Origin: a virus
Taxonomy: Duplodnaviria; Caudoviricetes
IMG/VR virus record: IMGVR_UViG_3300043775_000410
Span: 9,161 to 73,160 of that record
Reading direction: 5' to 3' (one strand)
DNA: 64,000 nt
Part shown: positions 8,210-24,661 of the stretch, piece by piece
Position numbering within the stretch: position 1 is the first letter of the stretch
Layout: each line of letters opens with the position of its first letter
Made by a program: the position numbers and the translations under genes
Notes under the pieces: generated by a model
Database searches by the model: none
Told to the model about the DNA's origin: nothing
Seen by the model: only the letters and a program-made list of their open reading frames with translations

Positions 8210-8226
8210 TAAGGAAATAAAGAACT

Positions 8227-9593: not shown

Positions 9594-9594
9594 T

Positions 9595-10071
9595 ATGTGG
9601 AATAAAATTAAAAATGTATTAACAAATATAGCACAGCCCGAAACAGGCAAAGTTGCTCCTATAACCGAAGGCAAGAAGCGCACACAGGTTAAAACACCTA
9701 AGGTTGCTAGTACAGATCCGGCAGCTGTTAAACCTAAAAAGCCACGTGCTAGTAAAAAGAAAGTAGTAGAAGACCCTGATAAGAAACTTGCTACTAAAAA
9801 TGGTGAACCTTGGGTAAAGATATTAAGTATGGATTTAGATCCCGATGATCCAGGTAATGGTGCATTTGAATTAGATTGGAATGATAAATTTGTAGCCAAC
9901 TTAATACGTGCAGGCTATCAAGGTCGAACAGATGCTGATATTGTAGACAATTGGTTCAAAGCAATATGTCGCAATGTAATCACAGAATCATATGAACAAG
10001 ATCAAGCCGATCCATCAAAACGTAATGAACGTAGACGTGATCTAGGTAATGGTAGAACGGAAGTAAGTTGA
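9595..10071 (+). CDS. Hypothetical phage protein
   Basis: ATG 9595 after the queE stop; Lys-rich linker followed by a globular domain. Confidence 0.7.
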   Translation: MWNKIKNVLTNIAQPETGKVAPITEGKKRTQVKTPKVASTDPAAVKPKKPRASKKKVVEDPDKKLATKNGEPWVKILSMDLDPDDPGNGAFELDWNDKFVANLIRAGYQGRTDADIVDNWFKAICRNVITESYEQDQADPSKRNERRRDLGNGRTEVS

Positions 10072-11812: not shown

Positions 11813-11822
11813 AAAGTAAATT

Positions 11823-12407
11823 TTGATAGATAAATCACAGAAGTTTTTAGCGTTAGACTTAGAATTAAACCAACCCAGTGGTAAGATCATTCAGGTTGGT
11901 ATTGCCATTGGCAGTGCCAATGATAAGTTTGAAAATTACATAACTAAGAAATGGTATATCGATCCAAACGAGCCGATTGATCAATTTATTATCGATTTGA
12001 CTGGTATTACTGATCACGATATTAGATTAAACTGTGTAAGTCATGCTACAGTTGCACGTGAACTCAGTGACTTAATCAAACAACATAACACTTGGATCAA
12101 CCCAATCACTTGGGGTGGCGGTGACAGTAGAGAACTGTTAGATGAGTTCTGTAAAAACTATGCAGACTTTCCACACTTCGGTCGTCGTTGGATTGATTGT
12201 AAAACGTTCTATACGTTTATGATGTTTGCACGTGGCAAGAATCCTAGTGGCGGGCTTGCTAGTGCTATGGGCACGTTTAAACTACAGTTCAAAGGCACAG
12301 CGCACAGAGCAGACATTGATGCAGTTAATACTCTCGCACTATTCTTTAAGTTCTTAGAGCGACAACGTGGGCTTGAAAACTTATTACATGATGCAAAAAG
12401 TATTTGA
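11823..12407 (+). CDS. DEDDh 3'-5' exonuclease
   Basis: LDLE, LTGIT, WGGGD, AHRADIDA. Confidence 0.85.
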   Translation: MIDKSQKFLALDLELNQPSGKIIQVGIAIGSANDKFENYITKKWYIDPNEPIDQFIIDLTGITDHDIRLNCVSHATVARELSDLIKQHNTWINPITWGGGDSRELLDEFCKNYADFPHFGRRWIDCKTFYTFMMFARGKNPSGGLASAMGTFKLQFKGTAHRADIDAVNTLALFFKFLERQRGLENLLHDAKSI

Positions 12408-12432
12408 CTTTTTGGCTAATCAATGGTATAAT
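12404..12432 (+). promoter_or_regulatory. sigma70-like promoter
   Basis: TTGACT-17nt-TATAAT with extended TG. Confidence 0.75.
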
Positions 12433-12504
12433 ATATTATGAAGAAAGGACAGAGGAAACAAAACAAAAAATGAGGATTAGTCAATTAAAAAGGTGGGAAA
12501 GAAA

Positions 12505-13362
12505 ATGATAAAAAGTTCAATGTTTTTAGGTGATACTACTAATGTAGATCACGCATATATTAATAACTTAGGTGATATAGTCGGCGGGTCATACCGACCA
12601 AAGTTTACCGTAACTGGTAAAGTAGATCCTGTAGAAAAGGTAGTAGTTGATTTTTCTACCGTTAAAAAGTCTCTTAAAGCAGCAATTGATGATACCGAAG
12701 ATGGATTCGATCATAAGCTATGGTGGATTGAAGGAGAATCTCTAGGAAATATTACATTTACCGGTGCCACTGTATCGATTGTGACTCCAAAAGTTAAAAT
12801 TTACGGACCAAAGAATATTGTTAAAGTAGTTACCAGTTCAACTAGTTTCAATGACTATTGTTTATCGGCGCTACAGAAAAAGCATCCAACTGTTGATATT
12901 GAGTTAGAAACCGTTCTAACTACTAATTTTGATATAATGCCACAACTGAACTCTATGCCACACATGTTTAGATATGTACATGGATTAAAAGAATCTACAT
13001 CGTGGGGGTGTCAAAATATTGGTCACGGACATTTAAGTTATATCGCAGCCAATACTACAAACACGTTAGCAACTGATTTATTATTAGCAGAAATTGCTCG
13101 AGACTTAGATGGCGTAATCTTTGCGTGGGCAGATAACATGCCTACTGAAAATTTAATCGAATATCATTGTGGGCGCGGTCCGATGAGTATGGAATTTGTA
13201 GGAGATGTAAAACTAGTCAAACTTACTACAGAAACTACTGTCGAATTCTTAGTAGATTATGTTATAGATAGATACGAACATCAACTAAAACAAGCAGGGG
13301 TTACTATCCTGTTCGTTTCAGAGGGATTAAGTAAAGGCGCCTGCAGAGGTATAAATGTCTAA
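12505..13362 (+). CDS. queD: Two-domain QueD-like 6-carboxytetrahydropterin synthase
   Basis: VDFSTVKK..FDHKLW in domain 1; HGL...GCQNIGHGH and TTVE...SEG in domain 2. Confidence 0.7.
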   Translation: MIKSSMFLGDTTNVDHAYINNLGDIVGGSYRPKFTVTGKVDPVEKVVVDFSTVKKSLKAAIDDTEDGFDHKLWWIEGESLGNITFTGATVSIVTPKVKIYGPKNIVKVVTSSTSFNDYCLSALQKKHPTVDIELETVLTTNFDIMPQLNSMPHMFRYVHGLKESTSWGCQNIGHGHLSYIAANTTNTLATDLLLAEIARDLDGVIFAWADNMPTENLIEYHCGRGPMSMEFVGDVKLVKLTTETTVEFLVDYVIDRYEHQLKQAGVTILFVSEGLSKGACRGINV

Positions 13363-13437
13363 ACTAAACGTAACAGTAGACCGCATTGACTGGTGGGAAA
13401 CTCCTAAGTCACGCAGTACTTTTATTAGAGGCTAATT

Positions 13438-13803
13438 ATGACTACTACTGTCTTTATCTTACTAGCATTATTTGGCATTAAGCACTTTATCGCTGACTTC
13501 CTAATGCAATATGACTACATGCTCAGAGAGAAAGGTATATATGGTGCAGAAGGTGGATTGCATCACGCGGCAGTACATGCGGCACTTACTTTATTCATTC
13601 TTGTGTTCTTTGCGCACAGTGCTAATGCTATTATTCTTCTTGCTCTAGCAGATGGAGTTATTCATTATCACATTGATTGGGCTAAACAACAACTAAATCG
13701 AGGCTTAACCACAGCAGATCACATGTTTTGGGTTTGGATGGGTGCCGATCAAGGCCTGCATTACTTAACATATATAGGAATTATCTATGTCGGAACAGTA
13801 TAA
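13438..13803 (+). CDS. DUF3307-like membrane protein
   Basis: KHFIADFLMQ, HYHIDW.K, GADQ.LH; hydrophobic helices. Confidence 0.75.
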   Translation: MTTTVFILLALFGIKHFIADFLMQYDYMLREKGIYGAEGGLHHAAVHAALTLFILVFFAHSANAIILLALADGVIHYHIDWAKQQLNRGLTTADHMFWVWMGADQGLHYLTYIGIIYVGTV

Positions 13804-14353
13804 ACGTTTCTGTGAATTTGAAAAAACCTGCGCCAGCGCGGCTAATTGTGATGGACCAACTCTTACATTGTTAGCACGAACTATTGTAAAAAACAAGTGT
13901 TGGGTTGTTGAAAGTGATGGTACTAAAGTAGCTACTATACTTGCTAACGATGGTAATAGTGGTGTTACCTTAGTACACGACGGACAAAGAGAACGGTTTG
14001 GTAGTTTAAAACTCCTAAGCGACCGTTACAATATTGTCATTGACAAAACTAAGGTAGCCAAGTTAGTTAAAGAATCACATGAGGTATATGGATATCCCTG
14101 TGAAAATAAACCACAGAATGCTTTATGGGACGTACAACATAAGTTGCCAGTGTTTACTAAAGGTAGCAAAAGTAAGAGTTTCTTCTGTGCCGGTTATTAT
14201 ATTATACAATTTAATAACGGGTGGGTTAAGAGTTACTGTCCTAAGTTAATTACACTTAATAGATATCCATATCAAGGCCCATTTAACACACAAGAAGAAA
14301 TGCAAATACAGTTAAGATTAGCAAATGGGGGTCACGATGGAGAATCAACTTAG
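13787..14353 (+). CDS. Hypothetical phage protein
   Basis: 188 aa ORF overlapping both neighbours. Confidence 0.7.
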   Translation: MSEQYKRFCEFEKTCASAANCDGPTLTLLARTIVKNKCWVVESDGTKVATILANDGNSGVTLVHDGQRERFGSLKLLSDRYNIVIDKTKVAKLVKESHEVYGYPCENKPQNALWDVQHKLPVFTKGSKSKSFFCAGYYIIQFNNGWVKSYCPKLITLNRYPYQGPFNTQEEMQIQLRLANGGHDGEST

Positions 14354-14558
14354 TCTACACTTAAAGGCGTTTAATAATCGCGTTAAAGTAATGAATCAAA
14401 CTAACAGCAAAGATCTAACATTATCTGCTGCAGATGTTAGAAATCTACATAACGATATATTCGAACTACTAGCGCAGATTGCGGCCCTAACTGCAATTAA
14501 AGAAGCCGAAGAAGCAGAAGCTGTACTTAAAGTTGAAATGGATGGTGGCGGATTCTAG
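14337..14558 (+). CDS. Hypothetical protein
   Basis: GGGGG RBS-like run before ATG 14337. Confidence 0.65.
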   Translation: MENQLSLHLKAFNNRVKVMNQTNSKDLTLSAADVRNLHNDIFELLAQIAALTAIKEAEEAEAVLKVEMDGGGF

Positions 14559-14583
14559 CAATTATATATGTAGTTAATTGGCA

Positions 14584-14589
14584 TAAATA
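14584..14589 (+). promoter_or_regulatory. Putative late promoter TAAATA
   Basis: Intergenic ATAAATA about 20 nt before the ATG; resembles the T4 late box TATAAATA. Confidence 0.5.
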
Positions 14590-14608
14590 AACATAGTAAG
14601 GATACTTT

Positions 14609-14896
14609 ATGTCAAGACCAAAGCCAACAGTACTGTTAGAGCACGTCAACAAAACAAATTACAAGAGTGATCAGATTCTGGATTCAGAAGGCATCTGGGC
14701 AGTTTTCTTTGATAACCAACCAATCAATCTAAAAACACAAAATATACTTGTAGCCTACCCTGGTCCAAAGTATAAGAAAGTAAGTTTTAGTAATCCTGGT
14801 CACGCAATTAATCTCGCTAAAAAACTCAATGTGCTGTTTAAGTCAGACAAGTTTTCAGTTGTGCTACTTAAAGCAGGCGATACCATCTACCCATAA
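14609..14896 (+). CDS. Hypothetical phage protein
   Basis: AAGGA RBS; 95 aa. Confidence 0.75.
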   Translation: MSRPKPTVLLEHVNKTNYKSDQILDSEGIWAVFFDNQPINLKTQNILVAYPGPKYKKVSFSNPGHAINLAKKLNVLFKSDKFSVVLLKAGDTIYP

Positions 14897-14898
14897 TC

Positions 14899-15243
14899 AT
14901 GTCACGTGCCGAATCTTTGCAGTCAATTTGGCAAACAAAGTTCTACGAGTTAACTCCGTACTCAGTAAGTCCTAGTAGTTGGTGGTATAACCCAACTAAT
15001 CATAACAGTTTGCGTTTGGTCCAAAAGGCCTATTTAGAAGTGCGTAAACACATTAAATTCTACAAGTTTGAACTAAGTCACGATATACGTCCTAAAACGT
15101 TTGTACAGCTAGAGCGTTGGTTTAAGGAGCCTTATTACGTGCAGAATCGCAAGACTATACACATTGTCAGTGATCGTGACGCAATGATGCTAAGTCTACA
15201 CGCAAACAATCTACAACAATATTTAGATAACCAATCACTTTGA
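14899..15243 (+). CDS. Hypothetical protein
   Basis: 114 aa ORF in operon. Confidence 0.7.
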   Translation: MSRAESLQSIWQTKFYELTPYSVSPSSWWYNPTNHNSLRLVQKAYLEVRKHIKFYKFELSHDIRPKTFVQLERWFKEPYYVQNRKTIHIVSDRDAMMLSLHANNLQQYLDNQSL

Positions 15244-15272
15244 TTGACTTTTAGCTATATTTGTGTTATACT
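15244..15272 (+). promoter_or_regulatory. sigma70-like promoter
   Basis: TTGACT-17nt-TATACT with extended TG; TAAATA at 15283-15288. Confidence 0.7.
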
Positions 15273-15306
15273 TGCTGTGTAATAAATAAAATTTAAGGAG
15301 TAACAC

Positions 15307-15594
15307 ATGAAGAAGCTATTACTAGCAACACTGTTATTATCACTTAGCACTACTGCAGCCGCAGATGGCTATTACAACCGACACTATCGGGGCAACGGTA
15401 ATGACGTATTACTTCCATTAATTGTTGGCGGCACCTTGGGTTATATTATTGCACAACCGCGTACCATAGTACAACCACAGTATGTACCGCTACCAAGTTA
15501 TGTTCCAGCTAACAACGAACCAATCTACCAATATCAGAACATTTATGATGGTAATTGTGCTTGTTATCATCGAGTTTTAGTTCAAATCAACTAA
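15307..15594 (+). CDS. Small secreted/membrane protein
   Basis: Signal peptide MKKLLLATLLLSLSTTAAA; Gly-rich hydrophobic segment; Pro/Tyr-rich tail with CAC. Confidence 0.75.
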   Translation: MKKLLLATLLLSLSTTAAADGYYNRHYRGNGNDVLLPLIVGGTLGYIIAQPRTIVQPQYVPLPSYVPANNEPIYQYQNIYDGNCACYHRVLVQIN

Positions 15595-15606
15595 GAAAGG
15601 ACCTAT

Positions 15607-15681
15607 ATGCGGTATCTTATTGCAATGGCAGTAGTAGTTGCAGTTCTCAGTGGTTGTGCAAAATTTAATACGTGTTTTTAA
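15607..15681 (+). CDS. 24-aa lipoprotein-like micro-ORF (possibly frameshifted)
   Basis: GAAAGGA RBS; MRYLIAMAVVVAVLSG-C lipobox. Confidence 0.5.
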   Translation: MRYLIAMAVVVAVLSGCAKFNTCF

Positions 15682-15721
15682 CTGTCGACACGCCTCCTCA
15701 TATAATAATTCAAATTAACGA

Positions 15722-15750
15722 TTGACTTTTACCTATTAAGAGTGTATAAT
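15722..15750 (+). promoter_or_regulatory. sigma70-like promoter
   Basis: TTGACT-17nt-TATAAT then AGGAG RBS. Confidence 0.8.
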
Positions 15751-15768
15751 GGCACTTAGGAGTCAACC

Positions 15769-16299
15769 ATGTCATCATTAGTAAGCAGAGCAAGGGCATT
15801 TGCTGCACATGCGCATCGCGCAATCGATCATAAAAGAAAATACACAGGTGAAGACTACATTGTTCACCCTGCCGAAGTTGCGGCTATTGTTGCCACTGTT
15901 CCTCACACAGACGAAATGCTCGCGGCCGCTTGGTTGCATGACACAGTAGAAGATACTGGTGTTACTATCGAAACGATCCGTGCAGAGTTTGGCCCAATTG
16001 TGGCAATGTACGTAGCAGACTTGACCGATGTTAGTGCCGCTGCCGACGGCAACAGAGCAGTGCGCAAGGCAATTGATTTAGCACATACTGCCAAGGCCTG
16101 TGCCGATGCTAAAACAATTAAACTTGCCGACTTGCTATCAAACACTGCTAGTATTGTTGAGCATGATCCAGGCTTTGCCCGTGTGTACCTTAAAGAAAAA
16201 TCAGCTATGCTTGCTGTGATGACAGATGGTGATGCAACATTGTTGGCCCGTGCTAAAGCCACACTATCAGCAGGACTTGCTAGATTAGATGGCAAATAA
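15769..16299 (+). CDS. HD-domain small alarmone hydrolase-like protein (SpoT/Mesh1 HD family)
   Basis: AH..Q/H.RK...YIVHP, AAWLHDTVEDT, LTD, IKLAD..SN. Confidence 0.85.
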   Translation: MSSLVSRARAFAAHAHRAIDHKRKYTGEDYIVHPAEVAAIVATVPHTDEMLAAAWLHDTVEDTGVTIETIRAEFGPIVAMYVADLTDVSAAADGNRAVRKAIDLAHTAKACADAKTIKLADLLSNTASIVEHDPGFARVYLKEKSAMLAVMTDGDATLLARAKATLSAGLARLDGK

Positions 16300-16302
16300 C
16301 GG

Positions 16303-16331
16303 TTGACATTTTGGTAAAATGACTGTATAAT
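16303..16331 (+). promoter_or_regulatory. sigma70 consensus promoter
   Basis: TTGACA-17nt-TATAAT. Confidence 0.85.
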
Positions 16332-16364
16332 GTTACACATACACTAACAACACAGGAGCAATAA

Positions 16365-16775
16365 ATGGCTTATATTAGCGCACAAGATGTTAAGGCAATA
16401 CGTGATGAACTTAAAGCAACTTTTCCTAAATTCAAGTTTGGTGTACGTAAAGGTTATGCGGGTAGTTCAGTTGACGTAACTATTAAACAAGGCCCAGTTG
16501 ACTTTGCTGAAGTGTTTGACGATGGTCATTTGCCTACTAAACGTAAATATGTTCAAATCAACGAATACCATTTAGACTTCTACGGCAAGTACGAAGCGTT
16601 CTTTGAACAAGTATTAGAAATTATCAAGTGTGCTCCGGCTCGTGCTGGTGGTCGTGCTTGGTTTGATAAAAGTGATTCGCAAATAGATTATTTCCATATT
16701 GCCTATTACATTCATTTAAACGTAGGTGAGTGGGATGAGCCATATACCTGCACAAAAGAAAAGGAGTTTGCATAA
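16365..16775 (+). CDS. LPD29-like (large polyvalent protein-associated) domain protein
   Basis: IRDELKATFP.FKF.VR start; DSQIDYFH..YY..L.VG.W..PY end. Confidence 0.6.
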   Translation: MAYISAQDVKAIRDELKATFPKFKFGVRKGYAGSSVDVTIKQGPVDFAEVFDDGHLPTKRKYVQINEYHLDFYGKYEAFFEQVLEIIKCAPARAGGRAWFDKSDSQIDYFHIAYYIHLNVGEWDEPYTCTKEKEFA

Positions 16776-16939
16776 TGAGTAAAAATTTACAACGTATTTT
16801 AATTTCAATAATGTTAATCATCGGTTATGTAACATTAGGATTACTTGGTGAGAATGGTTCGATGCTACATGAACTATTGGGTAACTTTGCTGTCGGTTGG
16901 GTAGTTTGGGAAATTGCCACAGGTATTGTTGGTGATTAA
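16775..16939 (+). CDS. 54-aa two-helix membrane protein (not in ORF track)
   Basis: AAGGAG RBS, TAATG overlap; MSKNLQRILISIMLIIGYVTLGLLG...FAVGWVVWEIATGIVGD. Confidence 0.65.
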   Translation: MSKNLQRILISIMLIIGYVTLGLLGENGSMLHELLGNFAVGWVVWEIATGIVGD

Positions 16940-16946
16940 TCAGCAC

Positions 16947-16975
16947 TTGACAAAACAAGAATTTGGTAGTATAAT
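16947..16975 (+). promoter_or_regulatory. sigma70 consensus promoter
   Basis: TTGACA-17nt-TATAAT. Confidence 0.85.
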
Positions 16976-17013
16976 CTGTTTTGTTACATTTAATAATTAA
17001 TTAGGAGCTACAC

Positions 17014-18111
17014 ATGGCGGCAATGACTGAAAATAGAACTGTTACAGCAACAGAAGCAAAGGCGGCAATTTTACGTTGCTTTACAAAACAACGCCCATTA
17101 TTTTTATGGGGTCCTCCAGGTATTGGTAAAAGTGAATTAGTAGAAGGTATTACTAAAGACATGGGCGGGTTGATGATTGACTTGCGCTTGGCACAGATGG
17201 ATCCGACAGACATACGTGGTATTCCTTACTTTAACAAAGACTTGGGCGTGATGGATTGGGCTCCGCCAATTGATTTGCCCACAGAAGAAATGGCTGCACA
17301 ATATCCGATTGTGGTGTTGTTTTTAGATGAGATGAACAGTGCAGCGCCAAGTGTGCAGGCAGTTGCTTATCAACTTGTATTGAACAGACGTGTGGGCAAG
17401 TATAAACTACCTGATAACGTTGTGTTGGTAGCGGCAGGTAACAGGGACGGTGACAAAGGTGTTAGCTACAGAATGCCAAGTCCACTTGCTAACAGGTTTG
17501 TGCATTTGGAAATGCGTGTAGACTTTGATAGCTGGTTACAATGGGCTACTGAAAATCGCATTAACAAAGACGTTATTGGTTACATTAGTTTTGCTAAACA
17601 AGATTTGTATGACTTTGATCCAAAAAGTTCAAGTCGTAGTTTTGCAACACCTCGTAGCTGGACGTTTGTTAGTGAGTTGTTAGACGACGGCATGGCAGAC
17701 GGCACTACTACAGATATTGTAGCAGGTACTATTGGTGAAGGTACTGCTGTTAAGTTTATGGCACATAGAAAAATTTCTGCTAAAATGCCTAACCCAACAG
17801 ACATTTTAAACGGTAAGGTTACAGAACTTGCTGTTAAAGAAATTAGTGCTATGTACAGTTTGACAATGAGTATGTGTTACGAATTGAAAGATGCGTACAC
17901 TAAGATTGGCAAGGAAGACAATGCTAAATGGCATACTATGGCAGATTACTTCTTTAAGTTTATGATGGAAAACTTTACAACAGAAGTTACTGTTATGGGC
18001 GCACGTGTAGCGTTAACAACTTTTAACTTGCCGTTTGTGCCTAACAAGTTGAAAAACTTTGATGAGTTCCACAAACGCTTTGGCAAGTACGTAGTAGCGG
18101 CAGTAGCATAA
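17014..18111 (+). CDS. MoxR/dynein-related AAA+ ATPase
   Basis: Walker A GPPGIGKS, Walker B LFLDE, AAGN, NRF, TPRSW. Confidence 0.9.
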   Translation: MAAMTENRTVTATEAKAAILRCFTKQRPLFLWGPPGIGKSELVEGITKDMGGLMIDLRLAQMDPTDIRGIPYFNKDLGVMDWAPPIDLPTEEMAAQYPIVVLFLDEMNSAAPSVQAVAYQLVLNRRVGKYKLPDNVVLVAAGNRDGDKGVSYRMPSPLANRFVHLEMRVDFDSWLQWATENRINKDVIGYISFAKQDLYDFDPKSSSRSFATPRSWTFVSELLDDGMADGTTTDIVAGTIGEGTAVKFMAHRKISAKMPNPTDILNGKVTELAVKEISAMYSLTMSMCYELKDAYTKIGKEDNAKWHTMADYFFKFMMENFTTEVTVMGARVALTTFNLPFVPNKLKNFDEFHKRFGKYVVAAVA

Positions 18112-18117
18112 TAGAGG

Positions 18118-18140
18118 AAAAGCCCCGCAAGGGGCTTTTT
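18118..18140 (+). terminator. Rho-independent terminator
   Basis: AAAAGCCCC-GCAA-GGGGCTTTTT hairpin with GNRA loop and U-tract. Confidence 0.9.
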
Positions 18141-18147
18141 ATATTCG

Positions 18148-18459
18148 ATGAGTGATTTCAAAATAACTAAGATGGATCGTAGACATACTGGTCACGAACT
18201 GTTTAATCATTATATAAATTATAATGTTTATGTTCGACGTGGGTTTAGTAATATATCATCCAACGAATTAAATTTTCTCAAACACCGTGTTTGGTTTTGG
18301 GAGAAGTTTGGTCCAAGTGCCGAACTTGGTAAGTGTCATCGAATAAACAGTCTTACCCACCAAACCCCAAAGTGGGCCTGGCAAACTGAACACAATCTAT
18401 TAAGAATCTATGTAACAGAAGAAGCATTGGCATTCTTTACCTTGGCACACAGCACTTGA
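18148..18459 (+). CDS. Hypothetical protein
   Basis: 103 aa ORF between the AAA and vWA genes. Confidence 0.65.
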   Translation: MSDFKITKMDRRHTGHELFNHYINYNVYVRRGFSNISSNELNFLKHRVWFWEKFGPSAELGKCHRINSLTHQTPKWAWQTEHNLLRIYVTEEALAFFTLAHST

Positions 18460-18484
18460 CAAACACTACATTTGAATGTATAAT
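18456..18484 (+). promoter_or_regulatory. sigma70 consensus promoter
   Basis: TTGACA-17nt-TATAAT. Confidence 0.85.
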
Positions 18485-18515
18485 AGCTGTTATAGTAAAC
18501 AATTAGGAGCAGATA

Positions 18516-19781
18516 ATGGCAACAGCAACAACTAGCGCAGAAAAGAAAAAAGTTGTAACAGTAACAGACGCACGTATTGATGCGGCTGTACGTGAAAAAC
18601 TTATTACGGCACGTATTGCGCTATTGCTTAAAGCGCCGTTTTTTGGTAACTTAGCAACACGCTTAAAATTAGTTAACGCTGATGAGTGGTGTAGTACTGC
18701 GGCTACAGACGGACGTAATTTTTACTATAACAGTGAATTTGTAAACAAACTGCCACAGAAACAAGTGGAGTTTTTAGTTGGGCATGAAGTGTTGCATGTA
18801 GTTTACGATCACATGGGACGTAGACAAGATAGAGATGCGCAATTGTATAACGTTGCGGCAGACTATTGTGTTAATGCTGATTTAATTAACAGCAAGATCG
18901 GTGAGAAAATTACAAGTGTGCCGATTTTGTATGATAAAAAATACGCAGGTTTGAGCTCGGAAGAAGTGTATGACTTACTGTATGAAAATGCTGAAAAAAT
19001 TAACGTTAATGATTTGCTTAAACAATTGTTAGACGAGCATTTAGATGACGGCGATGACGACAGCGAAGAAGGTGAAGGCGAGGGTGAAGGCGGACGTCCG
19101 GGTAAGATGACTGCTGAAGAAAAGAAAGCATTGCGTGACGAAATACGTGAAGCTGTACTACAAGCGGCAGAAGCTGCAGGTGCAGGTAATTTGCCAATGG
19201 GTGTTAAACGTTTGATTAACAAGCTAACAAACCCACAACTAAACTGGCGTGAACTAATTAGACAACAGGTACAGAGTTTAGTACGTGCTGACTTTACTTG
19301 GGCACGTATGAATAGAAAAGGACAACATTTAGATGCAATTTTGCCAGGTAGCAACTTTGCAGAAACAATTGACGTTAGTGTTAGTATTGATGCGTCGGGC
19401 AGTATGAGTGAAGGTATGTTGCGTGATATCTTAAGTGAAGTTAAAGGTATTATGGAGGCGTTTGACGACTTTAAACTTGATGTATGGTCATTTGATACAG
19501 ATGTTTATGGTTACGAAAAATTCACGCCAGACAACATTGACGACATTGACACTTACGAATTACAAGGTGGCGGCGGCACAGACTTTGAATGTAACTGGGA
19601 ATTTATGCGTGAAAATGAAATTGCGCCAAAATTGTTTATTATGTTTACAGATGGTTACCCAGGTGGTGGTTGGGGTGACGAGAGTTACGCAGACACATTA
19701 TTTGTAATACACGGTACTACTAGTATTGAAGCACCATTTGGTATTACAGCTTATTATGATTTATCAAAAGGATCCAATTAA
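18516..19781 (+). CDS. DUF2201-type metallopeptidase plus vWA domain protein
   Basis: TAATDG, HEVLH (HExxH), acidic linker, MIDAS DASGS...GGGT...FTDG. Confidence 0.88.
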   Translation: MATATTSAEKKKVVTVTDARIDAAVREKLITARIALLLKAPFFGNLATRLKLVNADEWCSTAATDGRNFYYNSEFVNKLPQKQVEFLVGHEVLHVVYDHMGRRQDRDAQLYNVAADYCVNADLINSKIGEKITSVPILYDKKYAGLSSEEVYDLLYENAEKINVNDLLKQLLDEHLDDGDDDSEEGEGEGEGGRPGKMTAEEKKALRDEIREAVLQAAEAAGAGNLPMGVKRLINKLTNPQLNWRELIRQQVQSLVRADFTWARMNRKGQHLDAILPGSNFAETIDVSVSIDASGSMSEGMLRDILSEVKGIMEAFDDFKLDVWSFDTDVYGYEKFTPDNIDDIDTYELQGGGGTDFECNWEFMRENEIAPKLFIMFTDGYPGGGWGDESYADTLFVIHGTTSIEAPFGITAYYDLSKGSN

Positions 19782-20116
19782 TGTCAGTATATCAAAGTTT
19801 TAGTTATAGTCCTACAGAGTTAGCAGAGCAAATGTCTAGTGCTACACACGACACACTTGCTTATCTATGGAAGTACAAATACATCACCACCGAACAGTAT
19901 AATGAATTGTCAGGTAAAATAATGGTTATGGCTGTGCCAAACCGTAAAGGGTTTGGTAAGAAATTGTTAGAATACTTCTTTGGTGATAATAAAGAAGAGA
20001 ATTCTTGGGTTTTTCCTATTGTGGAAGTAGCAACCCACTATAGACCTGCTACTCCAGAAAAGCCAAAGAATGTAACTCGACTTAAAACCAAACCTAAGTT
20101 AGAGGTGGTTGAGTAA
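19781..20116 (+). CDS. Hypothetical protein
   Basis: TAATG-coupled 111 aa ORF. Confidence 0.7.
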   Translation: MSVYQSFSYSPTELAEQMSSATHDTLAYLWKYKYITTEQYNELSGKIMVMAVPNRKGFGKKLLEYFFGDNKEENSWVFPIVEVATHYRPATPEKPKNVTRLKTKPKLEVVE

Positions 20117-20562
20117 TGGCCTTAGGTTGGGATGATGTACAGCGTATGAAACGTGTAGAAGCTCGAGCAGAAGAGCTTGGGTTTAAGTTTTCTTCTTCAG
20201 CTAATTATAACTATGGTGCTAACAACATTATAAGTTATATCTGTTTAAAACCTAAGGAAGATTGTTTACCACACTACAGTCGTGATGCCGATATCTTTAT
20301 AGGTACACTTGAGGAGATCAATACCTGGTTAACTGGCGTTGAATGGGCTCGCGGCTACGAAGAGATGCTTAAACTTGGCAATGATAAGAAACGTAAGGAA
20401 AAAGAACAAGTCGAACGTAATCGGCAATTACTACGCACCATTAAAACTGGTCGTGAAGTTAAAGGCACTGTCGGATGTACCAGTGTTGACGAATGGCGCT
20501 TGCATCTTGAAGAAGAGTACGATATTGACGACGAAGTTGATTACAGTGCAATACCATTTTAG
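20116..20562 (+). CDS. Hypothetical protein
   Basis: GAGGT RBS, TAATG-coupled 148 aa ORF. Confidence 0.7.
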   Translation: MALGWDDVQRMKRVEARAEELGFKFSSSANYNYGANNIISYICLKPKEDCLPHYSRDADIFIGTLEEINTWLTGVEWARGYEEMLKLGNDKKRKEKEQVERNRQLLRTIKTGREVKGTVGCTSVDEWRLHLEEEYDIDDEVDYSAIPF

Positions 20563-20572
20563 GAAAAATACA

Positions 20573-21046
20573 ATGACAAAAGTAATGACTATGACAAAAA
20601 TAATTGAATCATTGCCCTATGAATTAAGCGAATGTACACCCGAACAAGCACCGTGGACTACATTAGTAGAAGAAGACTTTCACATTGCTATTTTTAAAGA
20701 TGGCTTTCCTGTCAGCTACGGGCACCTGCTGTTTGTGCCTAAGTATAATACCGTAGATGTGTTAGCCGACGCAGTAGCTGATGCCATTGCGCAAGGACAA
20801 CGTATGGTTGCCGAAGGTAACTGTGATGGATATAACATTGGCATTAATGTTGGTGAAGCGGCCGGACAAACAGTTGCTTGGCCACATGTACATATGATTC
20901 CTCGACGCACAGGCGATGTCACTGATCCGCGCGGCGGTGTGCGTAATGTTATTCCTCATTTGGGTAATTACAAGAGTAAAGGATACGGTGATGCCTACGA
21001 CGAAGTAAATAAATGGTATGGTGGGTTTGATGATGCTAGAGACTAG
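20573..21046 (+). CDS. HIT-family nucleotide hydrolase
   Basis: DGFPVSYGHLLFVPK, GYNIGINVGEAAGQTV..PHVHMIPR. Confidence 0.88.
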   Translation: MTKVMTMTKIIESLPYELSECTPEQAPWTTLVEEDFHIAIFKDGFPVSYGHLLFVPKYNTVDVLADAVADAIAQGQRMVAEGNCDGYNIGINVGEAAGQTVAWPHVHMIPRRTGDVTDPRGGVRNVIPHLGNYKSKGYGDAYDEVNKWYGGFDDARD

Positions 21047-21050
21047 ATAA

Positions 21051-21341
21051 ATGCTCAAACATAATGAACCCAATCCCTTAAACGTACACGGGCTAAGACA
21101 GCTTAGTCATTGCCCGCCTCACTTTACTCCTGTGATATTCGATCTTGCTGTACAAGATAAAGACCTAGTTGATTGGCTGTATGAAAACTTAGAAGGACGT
21201 TTTTATTCTGGACAAATTGACGTTAGACAAGAGTCTGGTGTTATCGCACGTCAGCAATGTATTGCATTTGAACAATCCTCTGAAGCGAGCTATTTCGCAA
21301 TTATGCTACCCACAATTAATGAATCAACTATTATGTGGTAA
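21051..21341 (+). CDS. Hypothetical phage protein
   Basis: 96 aa ORF. Confidence 0.7.
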   Translation: MLKHNEPNPLNVHGLRQLSHCPPHFTPVIFDLAVQDKDLVDWLYENLEGRFYSGQIDVRQESGVIARQQCIAFEQSSEASYFAIMLPTINESTIMW

Positions 21342-21370
21342 TAAAATATTTCCACCTGTTTAGACCATGG

Positions 21371-21376
21371 TAAATA
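21371..21376 (+). promoter_or_regulatory. Putative late promoter TAAATA
   Basis: Intergenic, upstream of the AAGGAG RBS. Confidence 0.5.
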
Positions 21377-21402
21377 AAGTTATCCCAAGGAGAACTTTTT
21401 TA

Positions 21403-21654
21403 ATGGCCAAAGCAGAAACAACCGCAACAGAAAATTCAACGCCTGTTGAATCTAACGAAACACAACAACCACAAGCCCCAAATTTAACACTACAAGACTT
21501 AGTTCTTGTGGCACAAATCATCCAACTTACCTCACAACGCGGCGCATACAAAGCCGAAGAGTTAGCCAACGTTGGTACGTTATACAATAAATTAATTGCA
21601 TTTTTAGACAGCGTTGGTGCAATTTCTAAATCAGAAACTGCTGCACAGGAGTAA
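21403..21654 (+). CDS. Hypothetical phage protein
   Basis: AAGGAG RBS; ATG 21403. Confidence 0.75.
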   Translation: MAKAETTATENSTPVESNETQQPQAPNLTLQDLVLVAQIIQLTSQRGAYKAEELANVGTLYNKLIAFLDSVGAISKSETAAQE

Positions 21655-21658
21655 TACT

Positions 21659-22333
21659 ATGATTAAGCACGTAGGCAGACATAATAACAAGCGAGTTGTT
21701 ATTGCATATAGACAAGTACCAGATGAAGATCACATGTGTTTAGTGATCTACAGTGAAACATTACCCATGCGTATACATGATGAAGTAATGAAAGTATTAG
21801 AAAGCGACATCGGTCAGCAAGCAAACGATTTTGCTGATGCACTATTCCGTCATACTATGGCAGATGGTGTTAATTGCTTAAACGCAATTCACCGTGGCGG
21901 ACTATTATCCAAAGTACCAACTAACCAAGTTATTGTAACTCCAACTTCAGCTAGTTCAGTACGCTTAGATGAATTAAACACACTATTAAATGAAATTGCC
22001 AAAGGCGCAGAAGCTACTGAAAAACTAGCTAAAACAGACGCAGGACAAAGATGGGAAGGTAGAGATCTAGGCGAACCTGCTAAAACTACAGCGGCAAGTG
22101 TTAATACGGATGGCGTGTTGTCTGATGCTGATATTGCAAATCAACGTTTAGCACAGGCTACTAAAATGGAAGCAGAAGCTAAGAGTTTGTTAGCAGAAGC
22201 AAAACGTTTAAAAGAAGAAGCAAACGCACTAGCACCTAAGGTAACTAAGGCAAAAGCAACTACAAGTACAACAACTCCTACGAAGAAAACAAATGCCAGA
22301 AAACCTACCACAACCAAAAAAGCCGCGGCGTAA
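21659..22333 (+). CDS. Hypothetical phage protein with coiled-coil and basic tail
   Basis: AGGAG RBS; ATG 21659; K/T/A-rich C-terminus. Confidence 0.75.
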   Translation: MIKHVGRHNNKRVVIAYRQVPDEDHMCLVIYSETLPMRIHDEVMKVLESDIGQQANDFADALFRHTMADGVNCLNAIHRGGLLSKVPTNQVIVTPTSASSVRLDELNTLLNEIAKGAEATEKLAKTDAGQRWEGRDLGEPAKTTAASVNTDGVLSDADIANQRLAQATKMEAEAKSLLAEAKRLKEEANALAPKVTKAKATTSTTTPTKKTNARKPTTTKKAAA

Positions 22334-22649
22334 ATCAACCCCTGGCAAGAAAGTCAACATGAATGTTAAGAAACGTTGGCAAGATATTGTCAGAGACGTT
22401 GATAAAAAGGAAGTGCCAGTTACCGTGCTACAGCGTATTATTGTTAAGCTCGTTGACGGCACTGACCTTAGTATCGATGTTAAACAATTACTTGAAGACG
22501 GGCAAGATCCTGACGACATTGAAGATTTGCTTAATGCTAAATTTCACGACCTTGACGAATATATAGAAACTGTTGACTTCTTTATCGACCTCGATAAAGT
22601 AGTTGGCGCTGTTCAACCTGAGACCGACAAGGTACTAAAGAATCTATGA
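22293..22649 (+). CDS. Hypothetical phage protein
   Basis: 118 aa ORF; ATGA overlap with the DHFR gene. Confidence 0.7.
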   Translation: MPENLPQPKKPRRKSTPGKKVNMNVKKRWQDIVRDVDKKEVPVTVLQRIIVKLVDGTDLSIDVKQLLEDGQDPDDIEDLLNAKFHDLDEYIETVDFFIDLDKVVGAVQPETDKVLKNL

Positions 22650-23149
22650 TTATATCAATTTTAGCTTCGACTAATACCGGTGGTATTGGTAATCGTGGTA
22701 CCTTGCCTTGGCCATACAACAAGGAAGATATGAGTTGGTTTGTTCGACATACTACAGGCAACATTGTAGTCATGGGTCGTAATACCTGGGATGATCCTAA
22801 GATGCCCAAACCATTGCCCAATCGTGAAAACTATGTAGTCAGTAGTCGACACGTAGCACAACAATATCAACACTTGGTTAAATGGATTCCTAGTAACCCT
22901 GTAGATAATATCTTACAGATACAGCAGGATAATCCATCCAAAGATGTGTATGTTATTGGTGGTCAAAAATTATACGAAGCAACAGAAAGTATAGTCGATA
23001 GAGTATTGCTTACACGTGTCAAAGGTGCATGGTTCACTGACACTCGTGTTCAGTTAGACAGCATGCTGGCTTGTTTTCAAATCAAATCAGTAACACCCGG
23101 TAATAATTGCACCTACGAAACGTGGGATCGTGTAATGTTTTTTAAATAA
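22646..23149 (+). CDS. frd: Dihydrofolate reductase
   Basis: GIG.RGTLPW, VVMGRNTW, PLPNREN.V.S, VIGG. Confidence 0.93.
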   Translation: MIISILASTNTGGIGNRGTLPWPYNKEDMSWFVRHTTGNIVVMGRNTWDDPKMPKPLPNRENYVVSSRHVAQQYQHLVKWIPSNPVDNILQIQQDNPSKDVYVIGGQKLYEATESIVDRVLLTRVKGAWFTDTRVQLDSMLACFQIKSVTPGNNCTYETWDRVMFFK

Positions 23150-23844
23150 TGAAAATATTAATTGCAGGTGATAGTTGGGGCTGCGGTGAATGGGGTTGGG
23201 ATTCCAACAAACGTAAATGGAAAGACGGTGATAAACATGATGAGTCGTACATTATCACCCATCGTGGACTAGAGTATTATCTAATAGAAATAGGCCACGA
23301 TGTTACTAATATTTCTTGTGGGGGTGCATCTAATAAAGAAATATTAGTAAAACTGCACCGACTAGAGTTACAATGCTACGATCATATTATATGGTTCCAA
23401 ACTGATCCTATCCGTGATCTTCGCCCGTATAGCGATAAATTAGTTGATACGTTTGACAATTTACTTACTAAACAGAATAGTCTAATAGAGAGTACCTACC
23501 AAACATTAAATTCGTTTGATAAAAAAATTATATGCTTGGGCGGATGTAGCAAATTAAATTTAAACTTAATTAAACAATATACAAATTTATCGCCTGTTAT
23601 TCCTAGCATACCCGAATTGTTAATGCCTACTTTTATTCATCCTAAAATTTGGTTTTCGGACTGGATTGATCAATCTTGGCGGCATTTTGATGTTGACAGT
23701 TTAGATAATCTAGTATATAATAAAACATTACAAGATTCAATTTTTGACAATGAAGAATTATTTTGGCCCGACGGAAGACATCCAAATCGTCATGCCCACC
23801 GAAAACTTTTTGAATATTTAATTACACATGAAAATCTATCTTAA
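23149..23844 (+). CDS. SGNH/GDSL-like protein
   Basis: AGDSW, GGASN, DGRHPN..AH. Confidence 0.7.
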   Translation: MKILIAGDSWGCGEWGWDSNKRKWKDGDKHDESYIITHRGLEYYLIEIGHDVTNISCGGASNKEILVKLHRLELQCYDHIIWFQTDPIRDLRPYSDKLVDTFDNLLTKQNSLIESTYQTLNSFDKKIICLGGCSKLNLNLIKQYTNLSPVIPSIPELLMPTFIHPKIWFSDWIDQSWRHFDVDSLDNLVYNKTLQDSIFDNEELFWPDGRHPNRHAHRKLFEYLITHENLS

Positions 23845-24661
23845 CGCATTAAAATTTGTTTTAGAAAACGGCACAATAAGACCAGATCGTACATCAACTG
23901 GCACAATTGGCATATTTGGTATGCAACAACGCTATGACTTGAGCAAGGGCTTTCCGGCCGTGACTACCAAAAAACTAGCGTTCAAAGCCTGTCTCAGTGA
24001 GTTGTTGTGGTTTATTGAAGGTTCAGGTGATGAAAATCGCCTACGAGAGTTATTACATGGTAGTAGGGACTCTGAAAAGAGTACCATCTGGACTGCCAAT
24101 GCTACAGCAACTTACTGGACACCCAAAGCTAAATTTGCCGGAGACCTAGGTCGTGTCTATGGTGTACAGTGGCGCGACTTTGGGGGAGTAGACCAACTAC
24201 TGCAATTAGTAGAAGGCATTAAGCAAGATCCATACGGTCGTAGACATATCCTGACAGCATGGAATCCAGGCGAGTTAGATCAAATGGCCTTACCTCCATG
24301 TCATTGTTTTGCACAGTTTTACGTCAGTGCAGATAATAAGTTGTCGTGTCAAATGTATCAGCGATCATGCGATATGTTCTTAGGAGTTCCTTTTAACATA
24401 GCGTCCTACAGCCTGCTAACGCATATGGTAGCCCAAGTGTGCGGACTTGGAGTAGGCGAATTCGTTCACGTTCTTGGTGATGCCCACATATATTTGAATC
24501 ATGTAGATCAGGTAAACGAACAACTGCAACGTGAACCATTACCTGCACCACAACTTTGGATTAATCCAGACGTTACTGACATAAATCACTTTACTATGAA
24601 GGACTTTGCACTCAATGGCTATGAATCACTCGCAAGCATTAAAGCACCAATGGCAGTCTAA
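23828..24661 (+). CDS. thyA: Thymidylate synthase
   Basis: DRT.TG, GFPAVTTKK, ELLWF, VYG.QWR, MALPPCH, YQRSCDMFLGVPFN, DAHIY. Confidence 0.97.
   Translation: MKIYLNALKFVLENGTIRPDRTSTGTIGIFGMQQRYDLSKGFPAVTTKKLAFKACLSELLWFIEGSGDENRLRELLHGSRDSEKSTIWTANATATYWTPKAKFAGDLGRVYGVQWRDFGGVDQLLQLVEGIKQDPYGRRHILTAWNPGELDQMALPPCHCFAQFYVSADNKLSCQMYQRSCDMFLGVPFNIASYSLLTHMVAQVCGLGVGEFVHVLGDAHIYLNHVDQVNEQLQREPLPAPQLWINPDVTDINHFTMKDFALNGYESLASIKAPMAV

What the first reader, a model, noticed from the sequence alone, without database searches (positions are those of the whole stretch)
17014..19781. Strand-specific purge of TC/CC (template GA/GG) confined to the AAA+ and vWA-peptidase genes
Seen (manual count): TC occurs about 10 times in the 1266-nt vWA gene and about 16 times in the 1098-nt AAA gene, many of the latter at X-Pro junctions. 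The 312-nt ORF between them has about 16. There is no TC at all in 18436-18808, 19099-19394 or 19524-19763. I found no ACC or GCC codon in either gene, and CC appears almost only at Pro. After pyrimidine-ending codons, Arg switches to AGA/AGG and Leu to TTA/TTG (aac aga, tac aga, gac ttg). GA and GG are used freely on the coding strand, so the bias is strand-specific. Other promoter-led genes (folE, S8, HD) do not show it. Inference A: the phage's G modification targets GA/GG and stalls host RNA polymerase on the template strand, so these two first-needed genes evolved modification-free templates and may encode the machine that licenses expression of the rest. Inference B: the mRNAs evade a UC/CC-specific RNase, or the ssDNA evades a TC-directed toxin or deaminase.
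Basis: partly seen in the sequence, partly recalled or inferred. Interest (0 to 1): 0.9.

Follow-up and report, generated by a model that had tools for sequence, protein, structure and literature searches.

The report
Two phage genes purged of TC/CC
Two neighbouring early genes of a freshwater jumbo phage have lost, through selection on silent sites, almost every avoidable TC and CC on their coding strand, most likely so that their messages escape a host factor that reads pyrimidine-C.

Summary
With amino acids kept and codons redrawn from the record's own usage, the AAA+ gene has 16 TC against 37.4 expected and the DUF2201 vWA-peptidase gene 10 against 38.0. No other of 75 ORFs comes near. 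Counting TC and CC together, 74% and 81% of all avoidable sites are gone; the next gene reaches 40%. The purge works on dinucleotides, not codons. In the vWA gene T|C codon junctions number 2 against 18 expected under within-gene synonymous shuffling. GA and GG on the same strand are untouched. Each gene has its own perfect sigma-70 promoter and AGGAG site.

Among 80 relatives the purge is confined to one nested clade and deepens step by step towards this phage. The substituted states are not mainly C-to-T products, so this is selection.

The G-modification idea is not supported: no DpdA in this record or in 20 related records, and FolE and QueE-like genes also occur in unpurged relatives.

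My best guess (0.35) is RNA-level evasion of termination factor Rho, whose primary sites bind 5'-YC. A YC-directed nuclease or deaminase remains a live rival.

The parts
16947..16975 (+). Perfect sigma-70-type promoter (TTGACA-17-TATAAT, 12 of 12) of the AAA+ gene
   Evidence: A 10-12 of 12 promoter lies upstream of the ortholog in nearly all relatives.
17003..17007 (+). AGGAG ribosome-binding site, 6 nt before the ATG
   Evidence: read from the sequence
17014..18111 (+). MoxR-like AAA+ ATPase gene (365 aa). TC 16 against 37.4 expected. YC 39, minimum possible 26, expected 75.3.
   Evidence: Pfam AAA/AAA_5; PHROG 1297 at 2.6e-98
18117..18140 (+). G+C-rich hairpin with a U-tract directly after the AAA+ stop codon: an intrinsic-terminator-like end of a one-gene unit
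   Evidence: -16.7 kcal/mol, z -3.8, 0 of 200 shuffles as stable
18148..18459 (+). 103-aa ORF of no known family, not purged (TC 16 against 14.0 expected). Its TGA stop lies inside the -35 hexamer of the next promoter.
   Evidence: No Pfam, PHROG or PADLOC match. A BLAST-detectable homologue lies in 21 of 80 loci.
18456..18484 (+). Perfect sigma-70-type promoter (12 of 12) of the vWA-peptidase gene
18505..18509 (+). AGGAG ribosome-binding site, 6 nt before the ATG
   Evidence: read from the sequence
18516..19781 (+). DUF2201 gene (421 aa): metallopeptidase domain with HEVLH, plus a VWA-like domain. TC 10 against 38.0 expected. YC 24, minimum possible 14, expected 66.4. It has 0-3 YC per 100 nt along its whole length.
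   Evidence: Pfam DUF2201_N at 8e-38 and DUF2201 at 1e-13

Best explanation
The two genes are separate host-RNA-polymerase units built for maximal early expression: a consensus promoter, a strong ribosome-binding site, and among the fewest rare codons in the record. Over a long stretch of their lineage's history, selection on synonymous sites and on codon neighbours has removed nearly every avoidable pyrimidine-C dinucleotide from their mRNA-like strand.

I propose that this makes the transcripts invisible to a host factor that recognises 5'-YC on single-stranded RNA. The best-documented factor of that kind is termination factor Rho. Its six primary binding clefts each take a YC dinucleotide, and it prefers C-over-G RNA. 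A YC-poor, G-over-C transcript gives Rho nowhere to load, so transcription of the gene cannot be cut short even when ribosomes lag behind.

Shown here: the purge, its YC specificity, its strand and gene specificity, its origin by selection, and the promoter and terminator anatomy.
For: 1. The dinucleotide specificity matches Rho's primary site. C after T or C is removed in all three codon phases, while C after A or G rises (AC+GC 166 against 137.0 expected and 143 against 118.9). YT is unchanged (162 against 159.4; 162 against 150.2). [quoted passage not shown]
2. Of 54 ORFs of at least 450 nt, the vWA gene has the lowest C-minus-G (-0.100) and the lowest YC density (1.9 per 100 nt; mean 6.15, sd 1.25). 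Its richest 78-nt window holds 4 YC, against a median of 10. The AAA gene ranks 2nd for YC density and 4th for C-minus-G.
3. There is a precedent for the principle. Dierksheide et al. 2026 (PMC13323073; abstract and sections 7 and 9 read) show that coding-strand purine bias protects genes from Rho. They also show that synonymous recoding towards pyrimidines makes a gene Rho-terminated, and they argue that this is a barrier to phages.
4. It is selection, not mutation. 81% and 74% of avoidable YC sites are gone. Context-dependent Arg and Leu choice is seen. Where clade relatives have TC and this phage does not, it has TT at only 19 of 70 sites in vWA, the rest being TA 13, AC 9, TG 7, GC 7, AG 5 and others. 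GCT and ACT are not enriched.
5. The trait is held through synonymous turnover. In 16 of 18 comparisons with relatives the YC count is below a neutral-turnover simulation, and in 11 of 18 at P<0.05.
6. The trait deepens progressively in a nested clade.
7. The AAA+ unit runs from promoter to terminator hairpin, and all of it is YC-poor.
Against: 1. Rho binds cooperatively to a stretch of RNA, so selection should fade once YC density is low. A purge almost to the theoretical minimum fits a one-hit-per-site agent better.
2. The AAA gene keeps one 78-nt window with 9 YC, in a Pro-rich stretch.
3. Other genes behind equally perfect promoters are not purged: 10793-11812, 16365-16775 and 23828-24661. 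Relatives with 10-12 of 12 promoters on the same genes lack the purge. So strong early transcription alone does not call for it.
4. Both genes have good AGGAG sites, so poor coupling to translation is not evident.
5. The genes downstream of vWA, apparently in the same unit, have normal YC.
6. The host is unknown, and so is its Rho.
7. No experiment bears on this. RNA-library contigs cover both genes in two runs of one study but cannot show level, ends or termination.
Confidence: 0.35

Rival explanations
1. Evasion of a one-hit agent that attacks pyrimidine-C, which is the first reader's inference B. This could be a host endoribonuclease or RNA/ssDNA cytosine deaminase. It could also be an ssDNA nuclease acting on the mRNA, or on the non-template strand laid bare in these very strongly transcribed units. 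Each remaining YC is then a potential lethal hit, so selection continues down to the minimum.
For: The purge nearly reaches the theoretical minimum: 24 against a minimum of 14, and 39 against 26. Both TC and CC are hit in every codon phase. Every non-Pro C-starting codon class is shielded from a preceding pyrimidine: 1 of 44 in vWA and 5 of 26 in AAA. From memory, not from any call: ssDNA cytosine deaminases of the APOBEC and bacterial toxin families prefer a pyrimidine 5' of the target C, and phage T4 endonuclease IV cuts ssDNA 5' of dC in TC contexts.
Against: I know of no bacterial RNase or anti-phage deaminase with YC specificity, and none turned up. Three literature searches gave 0, 0 and 2 irrelevant papers. 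A DNA-level agent should threaten all genes, yet 171 of 173 ORFs in a 219-kb crown-clade relative are not purged. The unpurged ORF 18148-18459 and the unpurged genes after vWA would leave a shared transcript vulnerable.
Confidence: 0.25
2. Translation-level selection. The two genes are the most codon-optimised early genes, and YC avoidance is a by-product of codon and codon-pair preferences of the unknown host.
For: Of 54 ORFs the AAA gene has the highest NAC fraction (0.62) and the lowest rare-codon fraction (0.06). The vWA gene ranks 3rd (0.52) and 5th (0.11). Across genes, TC observed/expected correlates with NAC use (Spearman -0.42, P=0.002). One ORF next to a structural-protein gene (50527-51465) also avoids T|C junctions (3 against 13.1), and structural genes of the complete relative have TC observed/expected of 0.42-0.67.
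Against: NNC and NNT of one box are read by the same G34 tRNA (textbook knowledge), so tRNA supply cannot favour AAC, GAC and TAC while banning TTC, ATC, GTC, GCC and ACC. The effect is phase-independent and includes junctions that within-gene codon shuffling cannot reproduce (0 of 5000). ORF 50527-51465 keeps normal NTC and TCN use (9 against 6.7; 10 against 9.6).
Confidence: 0.12
3. The phage DNA carries a modified G in GA/GG context that hinders host RNA polymerase, and these two genes evolved a modification-free template strand.
For: FolE, QueE-like and QueD-like genes are in the window. DpdA enzymes with GA or GA+GGC specificity exist: CAjan (passages of PMC7544227) and iggy (abstract in the listing). 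Template GA is the most depleted dinucleotide.
Against: PF01702 was found in 0 of 21 records, including a complete purged relative, against 14 of 14 controls. No match to a DpdA or transglycosylase family was found among the ORFs around folE in Pfam, PHROGs or NCBIfam; the 403-aa ORF there looks glycosyltransferase-like. The precursor genes are equally present in unpurged relatives. G|CCN is favoured, so template GGC is not avoided. Other early genes are unpurged.
Confidence: 0.06
4. A mutational footprint without selection, such as transcription-associated C-to-T deamination of the exposed coding strand. Alternatively, a compositional relic of horizontal transfer.
For: The units are very strongly promoted. 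TTT (92%) and ATT (88%) dominate Phe and Ile codons.
Against: Only 19 of 70 (vWA) and 20 of 65 (AAA) differing sites show TT. The shares lost by GCC and ACC went to GCG/GCA and ACA, not to GCT/ACT. Arg CGN-to-AGR switching and Ser TCN-to-AGY cannot come from C-to-T changes. The purged genes sit in a nested clade with conserved promoters and gene order, and the decline is graded, so transfer from an odd donor is not indicated.
Confidence: 0.05

Closest known systems
Rho-avoidance purine bias of bacterial coding strands (Dierksheide et al. 2026, PMC13323073)
   Same: There is a strand-specific lack of pyrimidine signals on the mRNA-like strand. It is carried by synonymous codon choice and proposed to stop Rho from ending transcription early. 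The authors discuss it as a barrier for phage and foreign genes.
   Different: There it is genome-wide and compositional (excess C, %T) in hosts with runaway transcription. Here it is confined to two genes of a phage, is specific to the YC dinucleotide (C is moved behind purines rather than simply lost), and goes nearly to the minimum the proteins allow.
APOBEC3 footprints in animal DNA viruses (TC/CC under-representation); recalled from memory, no call
   Same: TC and CC are depleted through synonymous choice as an escape from a YC-reading enzyme.
   Different: Those footprints are genome- or region-wide and tied to a known deaminase. Here no deaminase is known, and the replacements are not biased to C-to-T products.
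Motif avoidance against sequence-specific host weapons, such as restriction-site avoidance in phages and transcripts free of MazF sites; recalled from memory, no call
   Same: Selection purges a short recognition motif from sequence that must survive.
   Different: Known cases concern 3-8-nt motifs and whole genomes or chance-free genes. A 2-nt motif purged from 1.1-1.3-kb genes demands context-dependent codon choice throughout.
DpdA-type 7-deazaguanine DNA modification with GA or GA+GGC context (CAjan, PMC7544227; iggy, PMC10484667)
   Same: The dinucleotide GA, as the complement of the purged TC; precursor genes FolE, QueD-like and QueE-like are present.
   Different: No DpdA was found, template GGC is not avoided, CC loss is unexplained by a GA motif, and the precursor genes also occur in unpurged relatives.
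MoxR-type AAA+ ATPase with a vWA partner (PHROG 1297 / PHROG 1314 pair of many large phages)
   Same: Same domains and gene order. A tblastn search with the AAA+ ATPase protein matched 857 phage records, the best at 48% identity in PA5oct-like Pseudomonas jumbo phages.
   Different: The function of the phage pair is unknown. In 60 of the 80 closest metagenomic relatives the pair has ordinary TC content.

Membership tests
Rho-evading coding sequence | Lack of 5'-YC dinucleotides on the RNA-like strand, beyond what codon usage and protein sequence give | tested here: met
   YC is 24 (expected 66.4, minimum 14) and 39 (expected 75.3, minimum 26). These are ranks 1 and 2 of 54 ORFs.
Rho-evading coding sequence | G in excess over C on the RNA-like strand | tested here: met
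   C-minus-G is -0.100 (rank 1 of 54) and -0.079 (rank 4). Many other genes of the phage also have G over C.
Rho-evading coding sequence | Expression becomes Rho-sensitive when YC is restored; the host has an active Rho | not testable with these tools
   The host is unknown and no experiment was possible. RNA contigs cannot show termination.
DpdA-type 7-deazaguanine DNA modification system | A DpdA (TGT-fold) transglycosylase gene | tested here: not met
   PF01702 was found in 0 of 1 (own record) and 0 of 20 related records including a complete genome, with 14 of 14 controls positive. No match to a DpdA or transglycosylase family among 20 window ORFs (540-14896 and three at 21659-23844) in Pfam, or 9-10 of those in 540-14353 in PHROGs and NCBIfam. 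Only 21% of this genome is in hand.
DpdA-type 7-deazaguanine DNA modification system | preQ0 precursor genes (FolE, QueD, QueE, QueC) | tested here: inconclusive
   FolE is clear (3e-39). QueE-like matches PHROG 2076 (6e-52). QueD-like is weak (1e-5). QueC was not searched for.
DpdA-type 7-deazaguanine DNA modification system | Modified G in a defined context in virion DNA | not testable with these tools
   This needs LC-MS or nanopore/SMRT analysis of virion DNA.
Deaminase (APOBEC-like) footprint | Depletion of TC/CC with matching excess of the C-to-T products | tested here: not met
   The depletion is met. The product excess is not: TT at 19 of 70 and 20 of 65 differing sites, and GCT and ACT are not enriched.
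MoxR-like AAA+ ATPase | AAA+ domain with Walker A and B motifs | tested here: met
   Pfam AAA at 1e-6 and AAA_5 at 1e-4; PHROG 1297 at 2.6e-98. GPPGIGKS and LFLDE are seen in the translation.
DUF2201 metallopeptidase-VWA protein | DUF2201_N metallopeptidase domain plus VWA-like domain | tested here: met
   PF13203 at 8e-38 and PF09967 at 1e-13. HEVLH and DASGS are seen in the translation. Catalysis was not tested.

The most novel reading that the evidence does not exclude
The AAA+ ATPase and the vWA-metallopeptidase together form the phage's countermeasure against the very host factor that reads pyrimidine-C: Rho, or an unknown YC-directed RNase or deaminase defence. Their two messages have been made invisible to that factor so that they can be made first, after which the rest of the genome no longer needs protection. 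The purge would then be a sequence-level signature that points to both a new host weapon (or a new use of Rho against phages) and its antidote.
Probability: 0.12. Interest if true: 0.85.

Novelty: new variant of a known kind. Interest (0 to 1): 0.62.

Why it matters
Motif purging is a record of what a virus has had to hide from. Here the purged motif is only two bases long, and it is removed almost to the limit the protein sequences allow. It affects just two genes out of 173 scored in a 219-kb relative, and it deepens step by step along a lineage of uncultured freshwater jumbo phages. That is a strong, sustained and very local selective force on silent sites.

It would also give a simple sequence test for which phage genes must run before host termination is tamed. 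If it is not Rho, the pattern points to an undescribed YC-specific host activity.

Either way it singles out the widespread but unexplained MoxR/vWA-peptidase pair of large phages as genes whose early expression is under exceptional pressure.

Tried and rejected
- A DNA search of the two genes against 50,697 phage records found nothing. Only a protein search did.
- Literature searches for anti-phage DNA cytosine deaminases and for UC-specific endoribonuclease toxins returned 0, 0 and 2 irrelevant papers. A search for DUF2201 in phages gave 4 papers with no functional data, judged from the listing only. I therefore cannot say that a gene-specific YC purge in a phage is absent from print. I can only say these searches, and the 12 papers listed of the 41 that one search matched, did not show one.
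- RNA-library contigs from two studies were laid on 14000-23000. Contigs at high likeness from two runs of one study cover both genes. Contig depth cannot rank genes, DNA carry-over cannot be excluded, and no ends were resolved, so I draw nothing from it.
- PADLOC gave only two sub-threshold ATPase hits.
- The careful tree search did not finish; the quick IQ-TREE result is used.
- A promoter-strength explanation is rejected: relatives without the purge also have 10-12 of 12 promoters.
- A purely TC-specific reading is rejected in favour of YC: the fraction of avoidable sites removed is higher for TC+CC (0.81, 0.74) than for TC alone (0.73, 0.58).
- T before Pro CCN is tolerated in the AAA gene (8 of 19, against 4 of 26 before other C-starting codons). 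This would fit one site per YCC, but the contrast is not significant (Fisher P=0.086), and the vWA gene avoids T there too (1 of 11).
- Supplementary files of the papers were not available.
Full report
**What the window is.**
The window is bases 9161-73160 of a 73,160-base IMG/VR virus record estimated at 21% complete. That makes it a fragment of a jumbo phage of roughly 330-350 kb. Runs that hold the stretch are freshwater and lake metagenomes. The nearest cultured relatives of the AAA+ protein are PA5oct-like Pseudomonas jumbo phages, at only 48% identity. A DNA search of phage records found nothing.

**The genes.**
- ORF 17014-18111 is a MoxR-like AAA+ ATPase (Pfam AAA and AAA_5; PHROG 1297 at 2.6e-98).
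- ORF 18516-19781 is a DUF2201 protein with a metallopeptidase domain (HEVLH) and a VWA-like domain (Pfam at 8e-38 and 1e-13).
- Between them lies a 103-aa ORF with no family match.

- TC observed over base-composition expectation is 0.31 and 0.19, against 0.45-1.16 for the other 63 ORFs of the window. GA (0.80, 0.93) and GG (0.90, 0.76) are ordinary.
- I kept each protein and redrew codons from the record's usage (75 ORFs, 300 draws). TC is then 16 against 37.4 (z -4.9) and 10 against 38.0 (z -5.9). CC is 23 against 38.9 (z -3.7) and 14 against 29.7 (z -3.6). The next lowest TC z is -2.9, and the middle ORF gives +0.7.
- GCC, ACC, GTC and CTC codons are absent. TTC is 3 of 37, ATC 2 of 40, and TCN 7 of 38 Ser codons (37% elsewhere). 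AAC, GAC and TAC are raised: 0.70, 0.53 and 0.54 against 0.35, 0.28 and 0.36.

So C at the third codon position is banned after T or C, unchanged after G, and favoured after A.

**It acts on dinucleotides, not codons.**
TC is low in all three phases.
- With each gene's own codon usage kept and synonymous codons permuted, the vWA gene has 2 T|C junctions against 18.0 +/- 2.9; 0 of 5000 shuffles were as low. A|C and G|C junctions are in excess.
- In vWA, Arg is AGR in 4 of 4 cases after T-ending codons and CGN in 15 of 15 after A or G (P=0.0003). Leu is TTR in 16 of 16 cases after pyrimidine-ending codons.
- In the AAA gene T|C junctions as a whole are not depleted (12 against 14.3). Eight of them precede Pro CCN. 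Before other C-starting codons T occurs in 4 of 26 cases, against 36% of codons ending in T (P=0.017). C|C junctions are 3 against 8.3.

**The unit is pyrimidine-C.**
I counted TC+CC and computed, for each protein, the smallest count any synonymous coding could reach.
- The vWA gene has 24, with a minimum of 14 and 66.4 expected. The AAA gene has 39, with a minimum of 26 and 75.3 expected.
- So 81% and 74% of avoidable sites are gone. The next of 54 ORFs reaches 40%.
- GA+GG on the same strand (156 against 165.9; 124 against 125.9) and YT (162 against 159.4; 162 against 150.2) are untouched. AC+GC is raised.
- YC density is 0-3 per 100 nt along the whole vWA gene and returns to 6-12 right after its stop.

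**Anatomy.**
- Each gene has its own perfect TTGACA-17-TATAAT promoter (16947-16975 and 18456-18484) and an AGGAG site 6 nt before the ATG.
- A stable hairpin with a U-tract (18117-18140; -16.7 kcal/mol; 0 of 200 shuffles as stable) follows the AAA+ stop directly. The AAA+ gene therefore looks like a one-gene unit.
- The middle ORF has no promoter of its own, and its stop codon lies inside the -35 hexamer of the vWA promoter.
- Of 54 ORFs, the AAA gene has the highest NAC fraction and the lowest rare-codon fraction. The vWA gene ranks 3rd and 5th.

Both genes are thus built for strong early expression by the host polymerase.

**Relatives.**
Eighty IMG/VR loci encode a relative of the vWA protein at 56-99% identity.
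- In 20 of them the vWA gene has TC observed/expected below 0.6; in 60 it does not.
- The purged loci form a nested group in a quick maximum-likelihood tree of 58 distinct AAA+/vWA pairs. One clade of 13 has support 99. A partly purged pair (L024/L025) has a closest relative (L021) that is not purged.
- TC counts fall step by step (AAA+ gene / vWA gene):

| Group | AAA+ TC | vWA TC |
|---|---|---|
| Outside the clade | 42-75 | 41-84 |
| L024/L025 | 34-35 | 28-30 |
| Deeper branches | 22-31 | 20-33 |
| Next branches in | 22-30 | 15-18 |
| Crown group with this phage | 15-18 | 10-13 |

- In a 219-kb crown relative the two genes are the only outliers of 173 ORFs: 0.75 and 0.70 of avoidable YC removed, with the next at 0.48.
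- In a complete 329-kb relative at 82% identity the vWA gene is the top of 268 ORFs (0.70). The AAA gene there is only fifth-lowest for TC, with an observed/expected ratio of 0.57.
- Other genes of purged-clade loci also have somewhat lower TC: median 0.75 in 19 loci, against 0.86 in 54 loci.
- Strong promoters (10-12 of 12) precede both genes in nearly all relatives, purged or not.

**Selection, not mutation or transfer.**
- At vWA sites where a clade relative has TC and this phage does not, this phage has TT 19, TA 13, AC 9, TG 7, GC 7, AG 5 and others, out of 70. In the AAA gene TT is 20 of 65. The direction of change was not polarised.
- GCT and ACT are not enriched. Arg and Ser family switches cannot arise from C-to-T changes.
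- Crown relatives are about 87-91% identical in DNA over this region, while 97-100% identical in protein.
- Their YC stays below a neutral-turnover simulation in 16 of 18 comparisons, and in 11 of 18 at P<0.05. These comparisons share ancestry and are not independent.
- The graded, nested pattern with conserved promoters and gene order argues against acquisition from a donor of odd composition.

**The G-modification idea (inference A).**
- FolE, a QueE-like radical-SAM protein and a weak QueD-like protein are in the window. A purine phosphoribosyltransferase-like protein is there too, along with a glycosyltransferase-like ORF.
- No TGT/DpdA match was found in this record or in 20 related records. 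These include the complete purged relative, and the control search hit 14 of 14 genomes. A very divergent DpdA, or one in the missing 79% of this genome, cannot be excluded.
- A QueE-like gene is in 19 of 20 and FolE in 18 of 20 related records, including all three near-complete unpurged genomes. The pathway therefore does not track the purge.
- Known DpdA contexts are GA+GGC (CAjan; passages read) or GA alone (iggy; abstract in the listing). GA alone leaves the CC purge unexplained. GGC is not avoided on the template here, because G precedes Pro CCN in 14 of 30 cases.
- I rate inference A at about 0.06.

**What most likely reads YC.**
Any factor must see the coding-strand sequence as single-stranded RNA, or as displaced DNA. 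It must care about C only when a pyrimidine precedes it.

Rho fits this exactly: its primary binding clefts take 5'-YC (passages of PMC12360218), and it favours C-over-G RNA. A 2026 study shows three things (PMC13323073; abstract and sections 7 and 9 read):
- Coding-strand purine bias exists to keep Rho off.
- Synonymous recoding towards pyrimidines makes a gene Rho-terminated.
- This is a barrier for phages.

Of 54 ORFs, the vWA gene has the lowest C-minus-G and the lowest YC density, and the AAA gene ranks 4th and 2nd.

Against Rho:
- Cooperative binding should not drive a purge to the minimum.
- The AAA gene keeps one window with 9 YC.
- Equally well-promoted neighbours and relatives are not purged.
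- Both genes have good ribosome-binding sites.
- The host is unknown.

But I know of no such bacterial activity, and three searches found none. I put Rho evasion at 0.35, a YC-directed nuclease or deaminase at 0.25 and translation-level selection at 0.12. Inference A gets 0.06 and mutation or transfer 0.05. The rest is unknown.

**Why only these two genes remains unexplained.**
The most economical idea is that they encode what the phage needs before anything else can run, possibly the antidote to the YC reader itself. That is speculation (probability 0.12).

**Limits.**
- ORFs were called mechanically (ATG starts, greedy non-overlap).
- The expected values rest on this record's own codon usage.
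- The tree is the quick version.
- Relatives are metagenomic contigs of unknown hosts.
- RNA evidence is limited to contigs that cannot show level or ends.

Noticed in passing
window 3189-13362: A gene cluster holds a glycosyltransferase-like ORF (3189-4400), an aminotransferase fragment (4400-4987) and FolE (5057-5752). It also holds an S8 peptidase (6164-8209), a purine phosphoribosyltransferase-like ORF (8227-8721), a QueE-like ORF (8721-9593) and a QueD-like ORF (12505-13362). No DpdA was detected here or in 20 relatives. A deazapurine pathway without a DNA transglycosylase is unexplained.
   Followed up: partly
window 10758, 16303, 16947, 18456, 23693 (+ strand): Five perfect TTGACA-17-TATAAT promoters lie within 13 kb, and 8 more on the + strand score 11 of 12. 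The two in front of the purged genes share CAC before the -35 hexamer and ATTAGGAG before the start.
   Followed up: partly
window 18148-18459: A 103-aa ORF of no known family sits between the purged genes with normal TC. It follows the terminator hairpin without a promoter, and its TGA stop lies inside the next -35 hexamer. It is found in all purged relatives and in a few unpurged ones.
   Followed up: partly
window 50527-51465 (-): An unannotated ORF in the minus-strand block avoids T|C codon junctions (3 against 13.1 expected) while using TCN and NTC codons normally. Of the three ORFs of that block scanned, only 52951-54321 matched a virion structural protein. This hints at a weaker, junction-only form of the bias in some other genes.
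   Followed up: no
window 56858-63952 (-): A giant 7095-nt ORF has a CC deficit (165 against 216.4, z -4.7) but no TC deficit.
   Followed up: no
window 17014-19781: Both purged genes are also poor in AT dinucleotides (z -5.6 and -3.9), avoid ATA, CGA, GGA and CTA, and favour TTG (0.42 against 0.13). This second signal is not explained by YC avoidance.
   Followed up: no
window 8721-9593 versus G001/G002/G006: The QueE-like protein is only 73-74% identical to those of crown relatives whose AAA+ and vWA proteins are 97-100% identical. It is closer (76-77%) to those of more distant relatives. The genomes are mosaic.
   Followed up: no
L011 6076-6774 (-): One relative carries an extra 699-nt minus-strand ORF inserted between the AAA+ gene and the small ORF.
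   Followed up: no
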